NCBI GenBank assembly: GCA_016180645.1
Contig: JACPAV010000016.1
Coordinates: 1 to 64,000, forward strand
DNA from: Nitrospirota bacterium
GTDB lineage: Bacteria; JACPQY01
DNA: 64,000 bases
Reading direction: 5' to 3'
Below the pieces are notes generated by a model that was given only the letters and a program-made list of their open reading frames with translations, did no database searches and was not told the DNA's origin. Position 1 is the stretch's first letter. Each line of letters starts with the position of its first letter. Positions 32,516 through 40,418 of the stretch are shown here, one piece after another. Position numbers and translations under genes: made by a program.

Positions 32516-34495
32516 TTGGACCAGCAGCGAATTCTCGACCAGATTCTCAACCGACTCTCGCTTCCCGACCTCGTCCAGAAATACACGCCCCTCAAGCTCT
32601 CCGGTAGACAGCATTCGGGGCTCTGCCCCTTCCACTCGGAGAAGACACCCTCGTTCAGCGTCAGCGCCGAAAAAGGGCTTTACCACTGCTTCGGCTGCGG
32701 TGCCGGCGGTAATTTGTTCACCTTTTACATGCAGATGGAGCGGGTCACATTCCCCGAGGCCGTCAAAGAGCTCGCGAGGCGGGCGGGCGTGGAGATTCCA
32801 TCCTCTCCCCAGGACGCCCGACGCGAAAGTCGGCGGGACGCGATGCGTCGGGCTCTGGGCGAGGCCCTGGCGTTCTTTCGGGAGAAGCTGTCCGACTCGC
32901 GGGAGGGATCGGCCACCCTCTCCTACCTGCGCGACCGCGGCCTGACGGAGGAAACCATCAACCGCTTCGAGGTCGGCTGGGCGCCGGCGGAGTGGGAATC
33001 GCTGGCCCAACATCTGCGGCGGAAGAAAATCGATCTCACACTGGCCGAAGCCTGCGGCCTCGTGCGAAAAAAAGCCTCCGGCCATTACGATTATTTCCGG
33101 GCTCGGATCATCTTCCCCATCCGGGATGCGCAAGGGCGACTCTCCGGCTTCGGCGGCCGGGTCCTTCCCGAAGCTCACGCCTCTCGCCCCTCGACCCCCA
33201 CGACGGGGGAAGTGCCGCGGGAGGGCACCCTGAAGGAATCGATGGAATCGGGCAGGGTACTTCGCAGCCTCCCGGAGCGGCCGCCTCCCACCTCCCGGGC
33301 GGAGCCCAAGTATCTCAACTCGCCGGACAGCGAGGTGTTCCGCAAGGGCGAAATCCTCTTTGGCCTCCAGGCGGGGCGGGATTCGATCCTCAAGCAGGGT
33401 GAAGTCACCCTCGTAGAAGGGTACATGGACGCCATCAGCCTCCATCAAGCCGGTCTATCGAACACGGTGGCTCCACTCGGCACGGCGCTCACAACGATCC
33501 ACATCCGGCTCCTCAAGCGTTTCTCACCCGCCTTTCGCATCCTCTTCGACCCCGACGAGGCCGGCGTCAAGGCGGCCCTCCGCTCACTCCCCCTGCTGTT
33601 GGCGGAAGGCATCCTCGCACGAGCCGTGCGACTGCCCGCGGGTCTGGACCCGGACGCCTTCGTTCGGGAGCGTGGCGCGGATGCCCTCCGAGCCCTATTC
33701 GCCTCGGATCAGGATCTCTTCGAAATGGCCATCGACGTGGTCCTCAAGGCCACTCCCCCAACCACGCCCCAGGGCAAGAAAGCGGCCGCGGACCGCCTCC
33801 TCGCCCTTCTTCGACCGGTAACAGATTCCATCATTCTCGACACTTATGTGCGGATGATCTCCCCCCGACTTGGGATTCGCGAGGATGCGCTTTGGCGTTC
33901 TCTCCCCCCGGCGGTTCAAGCGGGCACGGATCCTCGGCCCTCCCCCGTTCCACCCCGATCCATGCCGGGCGCCGGCCGTCTCGCCTCCCTTCGCGAAAAG
34001 CAGCGCGACCTCATGGAAAAGACCGCCCTCCAAGCCGCACTCGACGATCCCCGCCTCTGGTCCGTTCTCTTTCACGCCGGCCTTTTTTTCAAGGATCCGT
34101 GGCGCGCCAAGCTGATCGACACCGCCCATCGCCGGTTCGAAGGTCGGTCCCCGAGCCCCGAGGCGTTCGCAACGCTCTTCACCGAGAAGGACGATTGCGA
34201 GAATTTCAGCCGGCTCGCCTTGGAGCGACCTTCAGCGGTCACGGCATCGCCGGACGAGCGCCTGCACAACGCCCTCAACGGACTCTTTGACCTTGCCAAA
34301 AAGGAGAAATTGGTTTATGTAAGGAACCTTATTCAGAAAGCCGGCAAGCACAACGACGATGCAGAAATGAAGCGGCTATTGCTCGCGAAGAAGCGCGTCG
34401 AAAATTCGCAGCTCGAATGGCCGCTGGATCGAACGCCGGATCTTTTCGCGGAAAAGGAACCCGAGCCGTTGGACGGCCTTTCCGGGCGAGCATGA
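32516..34495 (+). CDS. dnaG: DNA primase, carrying a 30-codon repeat insertion
   Basis: [31 protein letters not shown]...PKYLNSP, VEGYMD, FDPDEAG, DPD. Confidence 0.97.
33192..33281 (+). repeat. 90-nt structured repeat, copy 1 (in frame within dnaG)
   Basis: 84/90 identical to the reverse complement of 44220-44309. Confidence 0.92.
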
Positions 34496-36294
34496 CCATG
34501 GCAAAGAAAAAGAAAAAGGAAACACCGGCCAAGCCGAACGAGCAGAAGAACAAGAACGCCATGAAGGCGGTGATCCAGCGCGCCCGCGAAAAGGGCGGCT
34601 ACATCACCGTGGACGAACTCATGGACTTCCTACCCATCGAAGATTTCACCACCGACCAATTGGACGACATCATCAGCGAACTCAGCGACAAAGGGCTCGA
34701 ATTGGTGGATCCCCTGTCCCACCCGGCCGCTCCCAAGCCGCCCGTCGAAGGCGCTCCCGAAGGCCCCACCACCGCCCAACCGGCGGAAGACTACGACGAC
34801 CTCGTTCGGAACGATCCCGTCCGCATGTACCTCAAAGAAATGGGCGCCATCCCGCTCCTGACGCGCGAAGGGGAAATCGAAATCGCAAAAAAGATCGAAC
34901 GGGGCGAGGATGAGGTCCTCCGAGCCGTCATCGAATGCCCCATCACCTGCGAGGAATTCATCCGCATCGGACGGAAGCTCAAGGAGGGGAAGCTCAAGCT
35001 CCGGGATGTGATCAAGGACATCGACGACGAGGATCAGGAGATCGACGAGAAGGTGTACATGAAGCGGATCCTCCGGTGCACCGGAAAGATCGAGAACATT
35101 TACAAGACCAACAAGAAGGGGTACGACCGGCTGAGGAGACGCGGGCTCTCGGAGCGCACCCGCTCGAGACTGAAGTCCAAGGTCGACGCCAACAATGACA
35201 AGATCGTCCACCTGCTCAAGGAGATCCATCTGAACTGGAAGCAGGTGGGCCGGATCACCCAACAGCTCAAGGATCTCGTCGGACGGATCGACAAGGGCAA
35301 GGAAGAGCTCCAAGTCATGGAGAAAACCAAGAACATCCCCATCGACCAACTGGCCAAACAGCTCCGAAAAATCCGGCGGCTGCCCAAGAAAAGCCAGTTG
35401 GACAAACTGGGGGACCTTGGGCTTTACAGCATGGACGCGCTGATCGAATTGGAGAACCAGATCCATCGGGCACGCCGGCGGATCAAGCGCGTGGAAGCCG
35501 AGACGGAACTTTCGGCCGGACAGCTCGAACAAACCATCAACCGGATTGCGGATGGGGAGCACCGGGCGCGCACGGCCAAGAAGGATCTCATCCAGGCCAA
35601 CCTTCGCCTCGTGGTCAGCATCGCCAAGAAATACACCAACCGCGGACTTTCCTTCCTGGACCTCATCCAGGAAGGCAACATCGGCTTGATGAAAGCGGTG
35701 GAGAAGTTCGACTACCGGAAGGGATACAAGTTCAGCACCTATGCCACGTGGTGGATCCGGCAATCGATCACCCGCGCCATCGCCGATCAGGCCCGCACCA
35801 TCCGCATTCCCGTGCACATGATCGAGACCCTGAACAAGCTCATTCGGGTCTCCCGCCAGCTCGTTCAGGAAAAGGGTCGCGAACCGACACCGGACGAGAT
35901 CGCGGAGAAGATGGACATGCCGGAAGACAAGGTGCGGAAGATCCTGAAGATCGCCAAGGAACCCGTCTCGCTTGAAACCCCGATCGGCGACGAGGAGGAT
36001 ACGCACCTCGGAGATTTCATCGAGGACCCCAAGATTCTCAGCCCGGAGCAGGCCTCGGAAAAGCGGGACATGCACGATCAGATTCAGCGGGCGCTCGGGC
36101 AGCTCACCCCGCGCGAGGAGCGTGTGCTCCGTCTGCGCTTCGGCCTGGGGGTGGACTCGGACCACACGCTCGAAGAAGTGGGGCGGGACTTCCAGGTGAC
36201 CCGCGAGCGCATCCGCCAGATCGAAGCGAAGGCCCTCCGCAAACTTCGCCATCCCACCCGGAGCCGAAAATTGAAAACCTTCAGCCAGGAATGA
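34492..36294 (+). CDS. rpoD: RNA polymerase primary sigma factor sigma70
   Basis: [73 protein letters not shown] overlap with dnaG. Confidence 0.98.
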
Positions 36295-36308: not shown

Positions 36309-36380
36309 GGTCCCGTAGCTCAACGGTTAAAGCGGCCGCCTTATAAGCGGCTGATCCTGGTTCGACTCCAGGCGGGACCA
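36309..36380 (+). tRNA. tRNA-Ile with anticodon UAU; CCA not encoded
   Basis: Acceptor GGTCCCG/CGGGACC+A73, anticodon arm GCCGC-CTTATAA-GCGGC, T arm CCTGG-TTCGACT-CCAGG. Confidence 0.93.
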
Positions 36381-36420
36381 CGTGACATGCGGTCCATCCT
36401 GGACCGCTTCCTTTCGTGGC

Positions 36421-36513
36421 CCCATGGCCTTCCTGGCATGGGACCAGCCATGGAGGGTGCGGTACTTGGCGCAATACGGCAGGCAGGAAGCCTGCCCTTC
36501 CAACGCCAAGTGC
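36421..36513. repeat. Intergenic palindromes with AGGAA-loop hairpins
   Basis: cccatg-gcc-TTCCT-ggc-atggg; gtacttggcg..GGCAGGC-AGGAA-GCCTGCC..cgccaagtgc. Confidence 0.55.
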
Positions 36514-36538
36514 CAGCCTTGGACACCACATCCCCCGC

Positions 36539-37291
36539 ATGAAGAACATCCGCGCCCAGATCGAAATCCTCCTTCAGCTTCAGGAAGTGGACGTCAGGAT
36601 CCAGCAAATGCGCGATGCAAAAGAACGGATCCCCCGCGAGCTCGATATCAACCGGAGCGAGCTGGAGCTCTGTTCCCAGACCACCGAAGACGCCAGGCAG
36701 GCTCTTGCGAAACACGAGGCGGAACAGAAAGCCATCGAGCACGAGATCCAGCTTGAGAAGGAACAGATTCAACGCTACGAAGAGCGCGTCAGCCAGATCA
36801 AGACGAACAAGGAATATCAGGCCATGCTGAAGGAGATCTCGGTCGCGAAAAAAATGAAAGAGGAAAGCGAGGATGAACTTCTGAAAACCATGATGCTCCT
36901 CGATGAAAGCCGTCGCCTGGTGACCCAAAGACAGGGCGAGTCGGCCGGAAAAGAAAAGGAGTTCAAAGAGAAGGAAGCGGAACTTCTGCGAAAGCTGGCC
37001 GAAGTGGACAAGGATATCAATGGCGTCGTGGACGGTCGGAACCGGCTGGCCGCCCAGGTCGATCGATCGCTCCTTCAGAAGTACGACATGATCCGGCAGA
37101 AACGGGAAGGCATCGCGGTCTCAAAAGCAGCCAACGAACTCTGCCTCGCCTGTCATCGGAACATCCCCCCCCAGCTCTACAACGAGATTCTGAAGGACGA
37201 CACGCTGATCGCGTGTCCCAACTGCCAGCGGATCCTGTATTACGAAGGGCCCTCTGAGGCGGCCCCATCCAAAGCGGCCTCACAGGCTTAA
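36539..37291 (+). CDS. Coiled-coil protein with a C-terminal C4 zinc ribbon (DUF164/HP0958-like)
   Basis: LLQLQEVD, KTNKEYQAMLKEI, CLACHRNIPPQ...CPNCQRILY. Confidence 0.92.
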   Translation: MKNIRAQIEILLQLQEVDVRIQQMRDAKERIPRELDINRSELELCSQTTEDARQALAKHEAEQKAIEHEIQLEKEQIQRYEERVSQIKTNKEYQAMLKEISVAKKMKEESEDELLKTMMLLDESRRLVTQRQGESAGKEKEFKEKEAELLRKLAEVDKDINGVVDGRNRLAAQVDRSLLQKYDMIRQKREGIAVSKAANELCLACHRNIPPQLYNEILKDDTLIACPNCQRILYYEGPSEAAPSKAASQA

Positions 37292-37759
37292 GTGGCCGAC
37301 CTCCCCACATCCGCCGCCCCACCCGCGCCCGACCTGATCATCTACGTGGACGGGGCATCGCGGGGCAACCCTGGACCCGCCGGGGGGGGGGCCGTCCTCA
37401 AGGACGCCGCCGGAAAAACGACGCAGGAAATTGTCCTCCCGTTGGGGAAAACCACCAACAACGTGGCCGAGTACAGCGCGCTGATTGCCGCCCTTGAACA
37501 GGCCCAAATTCGAAAGGCCAAGCGGATCAAGGTCTTCTCGGATTCGCTTCTCATGGTGAACCAGGTCACGGGCATCTATCGCGTACGGCACCCTCGAATC
37601 CTCCCACTCTGGGACAAGATCCAATCGCTCCTTCGCCCTTTCGAGTGGGAAATCGTACACATCCCCCGGAAGGCGAATCAAGAGGCGGATCGCCTCGCCA
37701 ACATGGCCGCCGCCCGCAGCGAAGCGGGCGAAAAGCCTTCCACCCCCGTCCCGGCGTAG
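37292..37759 (+). CDS. rnhA: Ribonuclease HI family protein
   Basis: IYVDGASRGNPGPAGGG, TNNVAEYSALI, SDSLLMVNQV, HIPRKANQEADRLAN. Confidence 0.93.
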   Translation: MADLPTSAAPPAPDLIIYVDGASRGNPGPAGGGAVLKDAAGKTTQEIVLPLGKTTNNVAEYSALIAALEQAQIRKAKRIKVFSDSLLMVNQVTGIYRVRHPRILPLWDKIQSLLRPFEWEIVHIPRKANQEADRLANMAAARSEAGEKPSTPVPA

Positions 37760-37812
37760 CGCAAGAAAACGGCGGGGACCCCCCGCCTCTCAGCGGAGAG
37801 CCCCCAATCCTT

Positions 37813-38433
37813 CGGGCAACCTGTAAGCCGGATTCTGTCGGCAGGAGCCGACACCCTGAGCAAGCCATGGATGGCGTGTCGAAGGGTCTGCATCCTGCCC
37901 GGTGATCATTCCTCTAATGCGTCCTACCCGCCCCGCCTCTCCCCGCCAGCCGGCGGGAAAACTTGAGCGGGCCGCTCTTCCCCCCCACCCCTTCTGAAAT
38001 CTGAGATTAAGAATCTCAAATTCCCCAAGGGGTGGGGGGAGCGGGGCATGCTTGGACTTGCTCCGGGCGGAGTTTACCGCGTTTCACGTCACCCCGCCCT
38101 TTCCTAGAACAGCCTGCACGCTTGTGCGGCCGCCACTTCCTGTGTCCCAAACGTCTTCCTGACCTCAATCCTTAGCCCGCACGCTGATTCCAAGAAAGGG
38201 CGGGGCTACTCGTCTCTGTGGCACTATTCGTCGAGCCGATCCCGCTCCTAAGCGGGGAGCCCGCCTCCGTTTGACACGGAGCACCCTGCCCTGCGGAGTC
38301 CGGACTTTCCTCCCCCCCCGAATCGTGAACCCGTGACCCGGTGAGCCCGAGGTTCCGACCACCGACTGCGGCCGGCTTTCGGGGTCACGGCTCACGGGGC
38401 CACGATCGGGGAGAGCGATCACCCAGTTACCCG
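37813..38433 (-). ncRNA. rnpB: RNase P RNA, unusually long (~620 nt)
   Basis: P1 CGGGTAAC/GTTGCCCG, P2 GGTGATC/GATCACC, GAGGAAAGTCCGG, AGTGCCACAGAGA, GGTAAACTCC..GGAGCAAG, ACAGAATCCGGCTTA; extended -10 TGCTACACT just upstream. Confidence 0.93.
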
Positions 38434-38455: not shown

Positions 38456-38484
38456 TTGACTTTCGATGGGGCCGCCGATAGCAT
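38456..38484 (+). promoter_or_regulatory. sigma70 promoter of accBC (leaderless), divergent from rnpB
   Basis: TTGACT-17 nt-TAGCAT-6 nt-ATG(38491). Confidence 0.7.
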
Positions 38485-38490
38485 CGCCGA

Positions 38491-39021
38491 ATGCCCAAAT
38501 CCCGGGACCCGGCCTCAACCAAGCCTCGGAGAATTCGCTTCGCTTCCGCTTCAACGGATCCCCTGATCGACACCATTCAGAAACTGACCCGGCTGATGGA
38601 AGGTACAGATCTGGTGGAATTGGATGTCCGCCGGGGCGAGCTCCGCATCCGGATCCGAAAGGCGGGGGCGGCCCAAGCCGTGGTCGTGCAGGCTCCGGCG
38701 ACACCTCTTGCGTCGACCGTTCCCTCCGCCGGGCCCGCCGCGACATCCCCCCTTCCCGCCCGCCTTGAGATCGAACCCGGCCAGATTCTCGTCACCTCGC
38801 CGTTCGTCGGGACTTTCTATCGCGCCCCCTCCCCCAACGCCAAACCCTTTGTGGAGGCGGGAGAGAAGATCAAAAAGGGGCAGACGCTCTGCATCGTTGA
38901 GGCGATGAAACTCATGAACGAGGTGGAGGCCGAAGTAGACGGAGAGATCGTCTCGATCTTGAGAGAAAACGGTGCCACCGTCGAATTCGGGGAGCCCCTC
39001 ATGATCATCAAGCGGGGCTGA
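38491..39021 (+). CDS. accB: Acetyl-CoA carboxylase biotin carboxyl carrier protein
   Basis: SPFVGTFYRAPSP, CIVEAMKLMNEVEA. Confidence 0.96.
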   Translation: MPKSRDPASTKPRRIRFASASTDPLIDTIQKLTRLMEGTDLVELDVRRGELRIRIRKAGAAQAVVVQAPATPLASTVPSAGPAATSPLPARLEIEPGQILVTSPFVGTFYRAPSPNAKPFVEAGEKIKKGQTLCIVEAMKLMNEVEAEVDGEIVSILRENGATVEFGEPLMIIKRG

Positions 39022-39071: not shown

Positions 39072-40418
39072 ATGTTTGAGAAAGTCCTGATCGCCAACCG
39101 GGGTGAAATTGCGTTGCGAGTGCTCCGCGCCTGCCGCGAGCTTCGCGTGAAGACCGTGATGGTCTACTCGGAAGCCGACCGGGACTCCGTTCCGGTTCTT
39201 CTGGCTGATGAAAAAGTCTGCATCGGCCCCCCGGACCCGCCCCACTCCTATCTCTCGGCACTTCCGATTCTTGCCGCGTGCCAGATTAAAAAGGCGAACG
39301 CGGTACATCCCGGCTACGGATTCCTGGCAGAGAACAGCGCGTTTGCAGAAGTCTGTGAAAGTTACGGAATCACATTCATCGGTCCCTCTCCGGAGACCAT
39401 GTCCATGCTGGGCGACAAGATCCAGGCCAAGAAGGCCGCCGCGAGGGCCGGCGTTCCCACCGTGCCGGGCACGGACGGGAAACTGGTGGATGACCAGGAA
39501 GCCCTCCGATGGGCCGGCCGGGTCGGCTACCCCGTGATCCTGAAGGCCAAGGCCGGAGGGGGGGGCCGGGGGATGGCCATCATCCGCTCGCCGGAAGCCC
39601 TGGCAACCTCCTTCGCCAAGGCGCACCAGGAGGCCCAAAACGCGTTCGGCGACGGCGACCTCTATCTGGAGAAATATCTGGAGCGACCCCGGCACATCGA
39701 AGTCCAGATTCTCGGGACGGGGAGCGCAGGGATCCTCCATCTCTTCGAGCGCGATTGCTCGCTCCAGCGCCGCCACCAGAAGGTCATCGAAGAAGCCCCT
39801 TCTCCCAGTCTTTCGCCGGAGTTGAAGAACCAGATCACGCAGGCCGCGGTCGCCGTGGCCCGCGAGGCCAAGTACGTCAATGCCGGAACGGTGGAGTTCC
39901 TGGTGGACGCCTCAGGCCGATTCTATTTCATTGAGGCCAATACGCGGCTCCAAGTGGAGCATCCGGTGACAGAAAGCATCACGGGGAGGGACCTCGTGCA
40001 GGCGCAGATCCGCATCGCCGCGCGCGAGCGCGTGGGGTTCGGCCAGAACGACTTGAAGGTGGATGGACACAGCATCGAATGCCGGATCAACGCCGAGGAC
40101 CCCGTGACCTTTGCGCCCTGCCCGGGAACGATCGCGTACCTCCATCTCCCCGGAGGCCCCCACGTGCGTGTGGACACCGCTGTCACCGCCAACACGGTTA
40201 TTTGGCCTCACTACGACCCGCTCGTCGCCAAGATCATCACGCACGCGCCCACGCGCCCGGAGGCCATCAACATCATGAAACGGGCGTTGTCCGAAACCGT
40301 GATCGTCGGGATCAAGACCAATATCCCCTTCCTGCTCGAACTCCTGGACACGCGCGAGTTCCGCTCCGGAGAGTTCGACACCACCTTCATCGACCAACTC
40401 CGCGCCCGCCGCGGCTGA
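39072..40418 (+). CDS. accC: Acetyl-CoA carboxylase biotin carboxylase
   Basis: KVLIANRGEIALR, HPGYGFLAEN, GGGGRGM, ERDCSLQRRHQK, RLQVEHPVTE. Confidence 0.97.
   Translation: MFEKVLIANRGEIALRVLRACRELRVKTVMVYSEADRDSVPVLLADEKVCIGPPDPPHSYLSALPILAACQIKKANAVHPGYGFLAENSAFAEVCESYGITFIGPSPETMSMLGDKIQAKKAAARAGVPTVPGTDGKLVDDQEALRWAGRVGYPVILKAKAGGGGRGMAIIRSPEALATSFAKAHQEAQNAFGDGDLYLEKYLERPRHIEVQILGTGSAGILHLFERDCSLQRRHQKVIEEAPSPSLSPELKNQITQAAVAVAREAKYVNAGTVEFLVDASGRFYFIEANTRLQVEHPVTESITGRDLVQAQIRIAARERVGFGQNDLKVDGHSIECRINAEDPVTFAPCPGTIAYLHLPGGPHVRVDTAVTANTVIWPHYDPLVAKIITHAPTRPEAINIMKRALSETVIVGIKTNIPFLLELLDTREFRSGEFDTTFIDQLRARRG

What the first reader, a model, noticed from the sequence alone, without database searches (positions are those of the whole stretch)
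37813..38433. RNase P RNA appears to lack P13, P14 and P18
Seen on the minus strand: after P12 the sequence runs GACGTGAAAC-GC-GGTAAACTCC, leaving no room for P13/P14. After P15 it runs GGGTAGGAC-GCATT-AGAGGAATGATCACC, leaving no room for P18. Established: bacterial type A RNAs have these helices and their tertiary contacts; Chlorobium lacks P18, type C lacks P13/P14, and archaeal type A lacks all three. Inference: a bacterial RNA with an archaeal-like reduced core, which may depend more on protein or on new stabilising contacts.
Basis: partly seen in the sequence, partly recalled or inferred. Interest (0 to 1): 0.72.

Follow-up and report, generated by a model that had tools for sequence, protein, structure and literature searches.

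The report
Remodelled bacterial RNase P RNA gene
This is the gene for the RNA subunit of the tRNA-trimming enzyme RNase P in a rare groundwater bacterium; it has lost three bracing helices but gained large extra hairpins, a variation already known from other bacteria.

Summary
Window 38433-37813 (minus strand) encodes a 621-nt RNase P RNA. It scores 85.2 bits against bacterial class A (below Rfam's cut-off of 100) and only 28.1 bits against the archaeal model. In the structural alignment, P13/P14 (43 consensus positions) shrink to 1 nt and P18 (23 positions) is deleted.

The only other genome of this two-species phylum (G001) has the same two deletions, and its P12 is only 22 nt. So P13/P14 are not hidden in G000's long P12.

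"Archaeal-like" is only superficially right:
- J2/3 is the bacterial 1 nt.
- A normal 121-aa RnpA is encoded.
- No archaeal RNase P proteins and no HARP-family (PIN_5) protein were found.
- The RNA is enlarged, not reduced: long P3, P12, P16.1, P17.1 and P19.

The nearest sampled families by RpoB have canonical type A RNAs, so the loss is derived and lineage-specific.

It is not unprecedented. Loss of P13/P14 plus P18 is reported for CPR bacteria. I also saw it in 5 of 10 low-scoring RNAs of one small-genome phylum.

Verdict: a real, probably functional rnpB; a new variant of a known kind; moderate interest.

The parts
37813..38433 (-). rnpB, RNase P RNA, 621 nt (RNA position n = 38434 - window coordinate)
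   Evidence: RF00010 85.2 bits, E 4.5e-26. It is the only RF00010 match in the genome. Folds. 8 compensatory and 0 broken pairs of 49 against G001.
38425..38433 (-). P1, 5' strand (pairs with 37813-37821)
   Evidence: Centroid and constrained folds. 2 double and 3 single changes against G001 in 9 pairs.
38417..38423 (-). P2, 5' strand (pairs with 37901-37907); J2/3 is the single G at 38416
   Evidence: One U-A to C-G compensatory change against G001.
38312..38415 (-). P3, 104-nt hairpin whose arms are built of CGTGANCC octamer units
   Evidence: Fold -71 kcal/mol. It belongs to a dispersed repeat family of the genome. G001's P3 is 96 nt with the same units.
38299..38311 (-). CR-I / P4 5' strand
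   Evidence: Matches the RF00010 consensus at high posterior probability.
38232..38298 (-). P5 and P7 5' strands, J5/7 (holds GGGC for P6), P8 (17 nt), P9 (32 nt)
38207..38227 (-). P10/P11 5' strand and J11/12 (CR-II)
38091..38206 (-). P12, 116 nt, closed by a long stem; the expansion is specific to G000
   Evidence: G001's P12 is 22 nt. Contigs of related organisms replace this stretch by 14-36 nt (tables 5 and 5c).
38079..38090 (-). J12/11: the junction where P13/P14 would be; 12 nt with no helix
   Evidence: 43 consensus positions replaced by 1 nt. All 12 junction letters are identical in G001.
38061..38078 (-). P11/P10, P7 and P5 3' strands
37921..38057 (-). P15-P16-P17 module with two extra hairpins: P16.1 (38040-37981) and P17.1 (37961-37938). 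P17 is 37977-37965 with loop GGCCC. J16/15 GGGTA is 37929-37925.
   Evidence: Constrained folds of both genera. P16 has 3 and P17 has 2 double compensatory changes.
37908..37920 (-). J15/2: the junction where P18 would be; 13 nt with no helix
   Evidence: 23 consensus positions deleted. Same length in G001. Other P18-less RNAs have the same kind of junction.
37840..37899 (-). P19, 60-nt hairpin
   Evidence: G001's P19 is 26 nt.
37822..37839 (-). CR-V / P4 3' strand
37761..37787 (-). Terminator-like hairpin plus T-run, about 25 nt past the mature 3' end
   Evidence: consensus scan only.

Best explanation
This is the single, functional rnpB gene of the organism. It encodes a bacterial RNase P RNA descended from type A.

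It keeps the whole catalytic and substrate-binding core:
- P1-P5, including the P4 strands (CR-I and CR-V)
- P7-P12, with CR-II and CR-III
- P15-P17, with the GGU of L15 that binds the tRNA CCA end
- a P17 loop able to form P6

It has lost the three peripheral bracing helices P13, P14 and P18.

It has also gained about 250 nt of lineage-specific helices. These are a 104-nt P3 made of a genome-wide hairpin repeat, a 116-nt P12, P16.1, P17.1 and a 60-nt P19.

It most likely works as an ordinary two-part bacterial holoenzyme with the 121-aa RnpA, cleaving 5' leaders from pre-tRNAs.

Shown: identity, architecture, conservation with compensatory changes in the sister genus, presence of rnpA, and failure to find alternative RNase P proteins.

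Inferred: activity, the mature ends, and that GC-rich extended helices plus RnpA suffice for folding without the lost struts.
For: - Identity: RF00010 match, E 4.5e-26, over the full model. It is the only match in a 97% complete genome. The same search also rings in two named control genomes, Bacillus subtilis and Lactococcus lactis, whose RNase P RNAs are type B by my recall, so a second RNA of that type should have been seen.
- Stability: z -6.72 against shuffles.
- Sister genus: G001 has the same two deletions. Of 49 homologous pairs in 9 helices, 35 are unchanged, 6 changed on one side, 8 changed on both sides, and 0 are broken.
- G001's P12 is 22 nt, so P13/P14 are not hidden inside P12.
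- Proteins: rnpA at 83.2 bits, 121 aa, followed by a yidD-like ORF (identified by eye from its translation). PIN_5/HARP, Pop5, Rpp30, Rpp29 and Rpr2 give 0 matches, while the controls ring in archaea.
- Assembly: independent public runs hold the sequence. A 495-nt contig of run X4 is identical over 37815-38309.
- Expression hint: a 181-nt contig of a metatranscriptome (X8) from another study carries both junctions, with a shortened P16.1 apex.
- Derived state: all 12 RNAs fetched from the families nearest by RpoB score 253-324 bits. The 6 whose alignments were shown have P13/P14 and P18.
Against: - The score is below Rfam's curated cut-off (85.2 < 100).
- No direct evidence of transcription ends or of activity. 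The RNA-library contig is at depth 3.2, and DNA can be present in such libraries.
- Covariation rests on two sequences only.
- L9 is a GNRA loop in G001 but not in G000, so even the L9-P1 contact is not clearly conserved.
- A protein-only RNase P of an undescribed family cannot be excluded by family searches.
Confidence: 0.88

Rival explanations
1. The lost struts are functionally replaced by the new RNA helices. P16.1, P17.1, P19, the long P3 and the P8 or P12 extensions would make new long-range contacts that hold the catalytic and specificity domains together. That would make this a distinct structural class rather than a simple deletion form.
For: P3 extension, P16.1, P17.1 and P19 are present in both genera. 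P16 and P17 show compensatory changes. Passages of PMC12974513 argue that deletions in bacterial RNase P RNAs tend to coincide with compensating expansion segments.
Against: No conserved GNRA loop or receptor is shared by the two genera in the new helices; the loops differ. The largest expansions are not shared: P12 is long only in G000 and P8 only in G001. A related contig shortens P16.1 by 41 nt. RNAs of 241-319 nt lacking the same helices exist without such expansions.
Confidence: 0.25
2. Extra, lineage-specific protein(s) compensate, as in archaea. One candidate would be a factor that recognises the octamer-repeat hairpin that forms P3.
For: P3 carries the same CGTGANCC repeat units in both genera, and the motif is dispersed in both genomes (72 and 11 pattern matches against 0 in the controls). 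This would fit a shared binding factor.
Against: No archaeal RNase P protein family was found. The dispersed copies mostly lie just after ORF ends, as expected of REP-like or terminator hairpins rather than RNP sites. In several copies the variable letter of the unit faces a mismatch. No candidate protein was identified.
Confidence: 0.08
3. The gene is a decaying remnant, and tRNA 5' maturation is done by a protein-only enzyme.
For: Score below the Rfam cut-off; loss of three helices.
Against: All core elements are intact. 0 broken pairs of 49 against a genus whose neighbouring proteins are only 58-70% identical. rnpA is retained. No PIN_5/HARP match.
Confidence: 0.03
4. The odd architecture is an assembly artefact of a metagenome-assembled genome.
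For: The genome is in 65 contigs from a metagenome.
Against: Three runs hold 0.99-1.00 of the sampled words, and a fourth holds 0.84 with a 495-nt contig identical over 37815-38309. An independently assembled genus has the same deletions.
Confidence: 0.02

Closest known systems
Bacterial RNase P RNA class A (Rfam RF00010)
   Same: Best-scoring family. Same core: P1-P5, P7-P12, P15-P17 with the L15 GGU, a P6-capable L17, a 1-nt J2/3, an optional P19, and partnership with RnpA.
   Different: No P13/P14 and no P18. Score below the gathering cut-off. 621 nt against a 367-position consensus. Extra P16.1 and P17.1. P3 is about 100 nt.
Reduced RNase P RNAs of CPR / small-genome bacteria (Lui et al. 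2021, PMC8172020; here G070's phylum and G015)
   Same: Same combined absence of P13/P14 and P18, the same type of P18-less junction, and the same need to lower Infernal thresholds. PMC8172020 passages and the legend of its S6 Fig were read. Alignments are: 5 of 10 low-scoring RNAs of that phylum, plus G070 and G015.
   Different: Those organisms have 0.5-2 Mb genomes. This genome is 4.7 Mb, with an RpoB of a different architecture. The RNA keeps P12, P15-P17 and the GGU motif, which many CPR RNAs lack according to that paper.
Type C RNase P RNA of Chloroflexota
   Same: No P13/P14. Nearly the same J11/12 and J12/11 sequences. A hairpin between P16 and P17, and P19 present.
   Different: Type C keeps P18 (4 of 4 alignments). 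RpoB of Chloroflexota-labelled genomes aligns in three pieces, while G000's aligns in one piece with other families. The resemblance is therefore probably convergent.
Archaeal type A RNase P RNA (RF00373)
   Same: Lacks P13/P14 and P18 (PMC4919922 and PMC2615603, passages).
   Different: Only 28.1 bits against a cut-off of 84. Bacterial 1-nt J2/3. No Pop5, Rpp30, Rpp29 or Rpp21 genes. Bacterial RnpA present.
P18-less type A RNAs (Hydrogenothermaceae and Desulfurobacteriaceae; Chlorobium by recall)
   Same: P18 is absent while the rest is type A (PMC4227106 passages). In my sample this holds for G021 and G006 by alignment and for several more by motif spacing.
   Different: Those RNAs keep P13/P14.

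Membership tests
Bacterial RNase P RNA class A (RF00010) | Score at or above Rfam's gathering cut-off (100 bits) | tested here: not met
   85.2 bits. Not listed at the gathering threshold. G001 scores 56.7 bits.
Bacterial RNase P RNA class A (RF00010) | P4 strands with conserved regions CR-I and CR-V | tested here: met
   Both strands match the consensus at high posterior probability. Sequences are listed.
Bacterial RNase P RNA class A (RF00010) | P1-P2-P3 with a one-nucleotide J2/3 | tested here: met
   Folds. Compensatory changes in P1 and P2.
Bacterial RNase P RNA class A (RF00010) | S-domain P7-P12 with CR-II and CR-III | tested here: met
Bacterial RNase P RNA class A (RF00010) | P13/P14 | tested here: not met
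   43 consensus positions replaced by 1 nt. The same holds in G001, whose P12 is 22 nt.
Bacterial RNase P RNA class A (RF00010) | P15-P16-P17 with the L15 GGU and an L17 able to form P6 | tested here: met
   GGGTA in J16/15. The L17 loop GGCCC faces GGGC in J5/7 in both genera. The P6 pairing itself is inferred and invariant.
Bacterial RNase P RNA class A (RF00010) | P18 | tested here: not met
   23 consensus positions deleted. J15/2 is 13 nt in both genera.
Bacterial RNase P RNA class A (RF00010) | Catalysis of pre-tRNA 5' cleavage with RnpA | not testable with these tools
   rnpA is present. Activity was not assayed.
Type C RNase P RNA (Chloroflexota) | P13/P14 absent but P18 kept | tested here: not met
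   P18 is present in 4 of 4 type C alignments and absent here.
Type C RNase P RNA (Chloroflexota) | Organism belongs to Chloroflexota | tested here: not met
   The GTDB phylum holds only G000 and G001. RpoB architecture differs from Chloroflexota-labelled genomes.
Archaeal RNase P RNA (RF00373) | Score at or above the gathering cut-off (84 bits) | tested here: not met
   28.1 bits, partial (model positions 21-244).
Archaeal RNase P RNA (RF00373) | Partnership with Pop5, Rpp30, Rpp29 and Rpp21 | tested here: not met
   0 matches for each of the four families in a 97% complete genome. The controls ring in archaea.
Reduced RNase P RNAs of small-genome (CPR-type) bacteria | P13/P14 and P18 both absent in an otherwise type-A-like RNA | tested here: met
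   compared and with PMC8172020.
Reduced RNase P RNAs of small-genome (CPR-type) bacteria | Host lineage with a small genome | tested here: not met
   4.7 Mb genome. Separate phylum. RpoB aligns in one piece, unlike G070 and G015.

The most novel reading that the evidence does not exclude
A large-genome groundwater phylum has independently shed the whole second layer of type A helices (P13/P14/P18). It has rebuilt the periphery from lineage-specific expansion segments, one of which (P3) is recruited from a dispersed genomic hairpin repeat. These expansions, or a factor that binds the repeat hairpin, would act as new struts. That would make this a fourth bacterial structural class of RNase P RNA and a natural test of 'RNA expansions versus proteins' as compensation for lost tertiary contacts.
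Probability: 0.2. Interest if true: 0.6.

Novelty: new variant of a known kind. Interest (0 to 1): 0.36.

Why it matters
- Annotation: the gene falls below Rfam's cut-off. Standard pipelines will therefore report this phylum as lacking RNase P RNA, although a good candidate is present.
- Biology: it shows that losing P13/P14 and P18 together is not confined to tiny-genome symbionts or to archaea with five proteins. It also occurs in a 4.7-Mb bacterium that has only RnpA.
- Evolution: here the loss comes with large RNA expansions that differ even between two sister genera. That makes a convenient pair of natural variants for asking what the bracing helices are needed for.
- Limits: it does not overturn anything, since each individual loss and their combination are already on record.

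Tried and rejected
- A lineage-specific junction pattern found nothing in metagenome contigs.
It therefore says nothing about this lineage.
- The search for related loci with the neighbouring CT398-like protein (alignment A2) gave 80 loci, but the best identity was 38%. No lineage relatives were obtained for covariation.
- My motif-spacing regex for the two junctions works on canonical RNAs but is unreliable on divergent ones. It gave several false short distances, such as GTGACA at distance 9-10. I therefore count only cases seen in Infernal alignments.
- Only 46 of the 147 RNAs found were inspected at all (28 loci plus 18 fetched). Twelve more were checked. The frequency of the double loss among bacteria is therefore not measured.
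- Read laying: most cover on 38260-38334 and 38035-38109 comes from the universal core of other organisms. Stretches without cover mean nothing. The X4, X5 and X8 contigs that replace P12 with short hairpins may be Chloroflexota-type RNAs, so I do not count them as lineage members. The exceptions are X8 record 25, and the X4 contig whose 22 inserted letters equal G001's P12.
- G019, close by RpoB, gave no RNase P RNA match above 13.7 bits. With 340 contigs this may be an assembly gap, and I did not follow it up.
- MAFFT misaligned P7-P12 of the two genera. I compared helices by anchors instead.
- Haas & Brown 1998 (PMC147833) and Marszalkowski et al. 2006 (PMC1624910) are not held. What I say of Chlorobium and of the original type C description is recalled.
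- PMC1874661 held nothing relevant.
- Supplements are closed, so the structure drawings of PMC8172020 (S5-S7 Figs) were not seen. Only their legends were read.
- Literature searches for this architecture outside CPR found none. The library lacks most subscription journals.

Full report
**What is there**

Rfam's gathering threshold reports only two tRNAs in the window. With permissive filters, the stretch 37808-38350 on the minus strand matches RNaseP_bact_a (RF00010) over the full model. The score is 85.2 bits, E 4.5e-26, below the curated cut-off of 100. It is the only such match in the 4.7-Mb, 97% complete genome. The same search also rings in the named control genomes Bacillus subtilis and Lactococcus lactis, whose RNase P RNAs are type B by my recall, so a second RNA of that type should have been seen. 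The archaeal model RF00373 gives only 28.1 bits, on part of the region.

The single-strand fold is much more stable than shuffles (z -6.72). Its centroid shows what the Rfam alignment misses. The true P1 pairs 38433-38425 with 37821-37813. P2 pairs 38423-38417 with 37907-37901. They enclose a P3 hairpin of about 100 nt.

**The observation**

In the Infernal alignment, the 43 consensus positions of P13/P14 are replaced by one nucleotide. P12 is followed directly by GACGTGAAACGC and then by the 3' strands of P11/P10. The 23 consensus positions of P18 are deleted. P15 is followed by GCATTAGAGGAAT and then by the 3' strand of P2. Both quoted stretches are in the sequence as read. A constrained fold places every other helix (coordinates checked).

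Could P13/P14 hide in the 116-nt P12? No, for two reasons:
- P12 is closed by a long stem, so everything inside it is an extension of P12.
- The sister genus has a P12 of only 22 nt followed by the identical junction.

**The lineage**

The genome's phylum in GTDB 232 holds two species, G000 and G001. G001's RNA (L030 1418-1918, 501 nt, 56.7 bits) has the same two deletions.

I compared nine helices of equal length between the two genera. Of 49 pairs, 35 are unchanged, 6 changed on one side, 8 changed on both sides, and none is broken. The neighbouring proteins are only 58% and 70% identical. This is the pattern of an RNA under structural selection, not of a remnant.

Both RNAs share a long P3, two extra hairpins flanking P17 (here called P16.1 and P17.1), and a P19. 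P17 keeps the loop GGCCC opposite GGGC in J5/7, so P6 can form. This is inferred, because both sides are invariant.

The largest expansions are not shared. P12 is long only in G000, and P8 is long (85 nt) only in G001.

**Independent occurrence and a hint of expression**

Four groundwater runs of one study hold 0.84 to 1.00 of the sampled words. Three of them may be the source of the assembly.
- A 495-nt contig of run X4 is identical over 37815-38309.
- Another X4 contig carries, in place of G000's P12, 22 letters that equal G001's P12.
- A 181-nt contig from a sediment metatranscriptome of a different study (X8, record 25) covers 38087-38031 and 37989-37878. That span includes both junctions. 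It has a few substitutions, one base fewer in J15/2, and the 41-nt apex of P16.1 replaced by 7 letters. This looks like a third member with the same architecture, found in an RNA library. At depth 3.2, and given that DNA can be present in such libraries, it is only a hint of transcription.

**Is it 'archaeal-like'?**

Only in the list of missing helices.
- J2/3 is a single G. Passages of PMC2615603 show that shortening the archaeal 3-nt J2/3 to the bacterial 1 nt is what makes an archaeal C-domain work with the bacterial protein.
- The genome encodes a normal RnpA of 121 aa, followed by a yidD-like ORF that I identified by eye from its translation.
- Pop5, Rpp30, Rpp29 and Rpp21 families give no match, while the controls ring in four archaea.
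- The PIN_5 family gives no match. By my recollection, PIN_5 is the family of the HARP protein-only enzymes.
- The RNA is enlarged rather than reduced.

**Where does the architecture come from?**

The junction sequences resemble those of Chloroflexota type C RNAs. However, type C RNAs keep P18 (4 of 4 alignments).

RpoB argues against common descent.
- An 800-residue stretch of G000's RpoB aligns in one piece at 53-62% identity with about 30 sampled families.
- It aligns in pieces in two Chloroflexota-labelled genomes.
- It also aligns in pieces in all the sampled genomes whose RNAs lack P13/P14: G108, G139, G074, G070 and G015.
- All 12 RNase P RNAs fetched from the RpoB-nearest families score 253-324 bits. 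The six whose alignments were printed have P13/P14 and P18.

So the double loss is a derived trait of this small phylum and is probably convergent with type C. This rests on one protein's similarity and indel pattern, not on a tree.

**Is it new?**

Not as a kind.
- Lui et al. (PMC8172020; passages and figure legends read) report that many CPR RNase P RNAs lack P13, P14, P16 and P17. They describe one lacking P12, P13, P14 and P18 and call all but the P12 loss 'not unusual'. They too had to lower Infernal thresholds.
- In a sample of one genome from each of 150 families, the window's RNA ranks near the bottom by score. Among the 46 RNAs I inspected, two others lack both elements: G015 (241 nt, also without P8/P9) and G070 (319 nt, 0.8-Mb genome).
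- In G070's phylum (genomes of 0.5-2 Mb), 12 of 60 RNAs fall below the cut-off and lengths reach 647 nt. Of the 10 low-scoring RNAs whose alignments I read, 5 lack both P13/P14 and P18.
- P18 alone is missing in Hydrogenothermaceae and Desulfurobacteriaceae (PMC4227106) and in several sampled families.
- What is particular here is the host: a 4.7-Mb genome in a phylum of its own, among neighbours with canonical RNAs. The amount of added RNA is also unusual.

**The P3 expansion**

Its arms consist of CGTGANCC units, and BLAST of the expansions against the genome picked this up. The pattern GTGANCCNGTGANCC occurs 38+34 times in G000 and 5+6 times in G001, against 0 in the reversed-sequence controls. 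Fourteen inverted pairs form hairpins, and one of them is P3. Thirteen of the 14 lie outside ORFs with strong GC3 bias, and several start a few bases after an ORF's end.

P3 of both genera thus looks like a copy of a REP-like or terminator-like hairpin family. P3 is peripheral in the bacterial enzyme, so a tolerated insertion is the simplest reading. A shared binding factor is the bolder one.

**Mechanism**

Most likely this is an ordinary bacterial RNase P. The RNA carries the active site (P4, J3/4, J18/2-equivalent). L15 pairs with the tRNA CCA end. The P9-P11 region with CR-II/CR-III reads the T-arm. RnpA binds the leader and the P2-P3-J2/3 face.

The missing struts normally brace the flat two-layer fold through L18-P8, L14-P8 and L13-P12 (PMC8457005 and PMC12974513, passages). 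How the fold is held without them is not shown. The options are:
- GC-rich extended helices plus RnpA
- new RNA-RNA contacts
- an unknown protein

**Context**

The gene order is:
- rpoD (34417-36294)
- tRNA-Ile(UAU) (36309-36381)
- a CT398-like zinc-ribbon protein (36416-37291)
- RNase H (37292-37759)
- rnpB on the opposite strand
- accB (38491-39021)
- accC (39072-40418)

A terminator-like hairpin follows rnpB.

**Verdict**

This is a real and probably functional rnpB. It is a new variant of a known kind, of moderate interest, mainly for annotation and as a natural variant for structure-function work.

Noticed in passing
window 38312-38415; also G000 contigs C3, C10, C17, C23, C30, C31, C32, C41, C52, C60; G001 C56:146508-146522: A dispersed family of hairpins whose arms are tandem CGTGANCC octamers. 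The pattern occurs 72 times in G000 and 11 times in G001, against 0 in the controls. Most copies lie just after ORF ends. P3 of rnpB in both genera is a member. In several copies the variable letter of the unit faces a mismatch in the hairpin.
   Followed up: partly
window 36309-36381: A tRNA-Ile gene with anticodon UAU (ARAGORN), right after rpoD and before the CT398-like gene. A near-identical tRNA sits at the matching place in G001 (L030 3247-3318). By my recollection this anticodon is uncommon in bacteria, which mostly read AUA with a modified CAU tRNA.
   Followed up: no
window 36416-38433; loci L172-L251: 49 of 80 metagenome loci holding a CT398-like homologue (27-39% identity) carry RNase P RNA core motifs a few hundred to about 1800 bases downstream on the same strand. 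This gene order is therefore widespread. In G000 and G001 rnpB is inverted relative to these neighbours.
   Followed up: partly
L028 1501-1741 (G015): A 241-nt RNase P RNA (126 bits) lacking P8/P9 (30 consensus positions) as well as P13/P14 and P18, in a 1.9-Mb genome. It is one of the smallest bacterial forms I saw.
   Followed up: no
G019 (L302, L303): This genome is among the closest to G000 by RpoB (60% identity) and is 96% complete in 340 contigs. It has no RF00010 match better than 13.7 bits. That is either an assembly gap or a still more divergent RNA.
   Followed up: partly
L045 and L080: These contigs are labelled Saccharimonadales and Patescibacteria but carry 70% GC, Chloroflexota-like type C RNase P RNAs. 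Mis-binning is possible.
   Followed up: no
window 38456-38484 (+): A sigma-70-like promoter (TTGACT, 17-nt spacer, TAGCAT) faces accB. It lies in a block that is conserved between G000 and G001, in the spacer that also has to hold the rnpB promoter.
   Followed up: no
G186, G158, G203 (L299, L300, L297): RNase P RNAs of 605-647 nt occur in the small-genome phylum of G070. Great length alone is therefore not special to the window's RNA.
   Followed up: no
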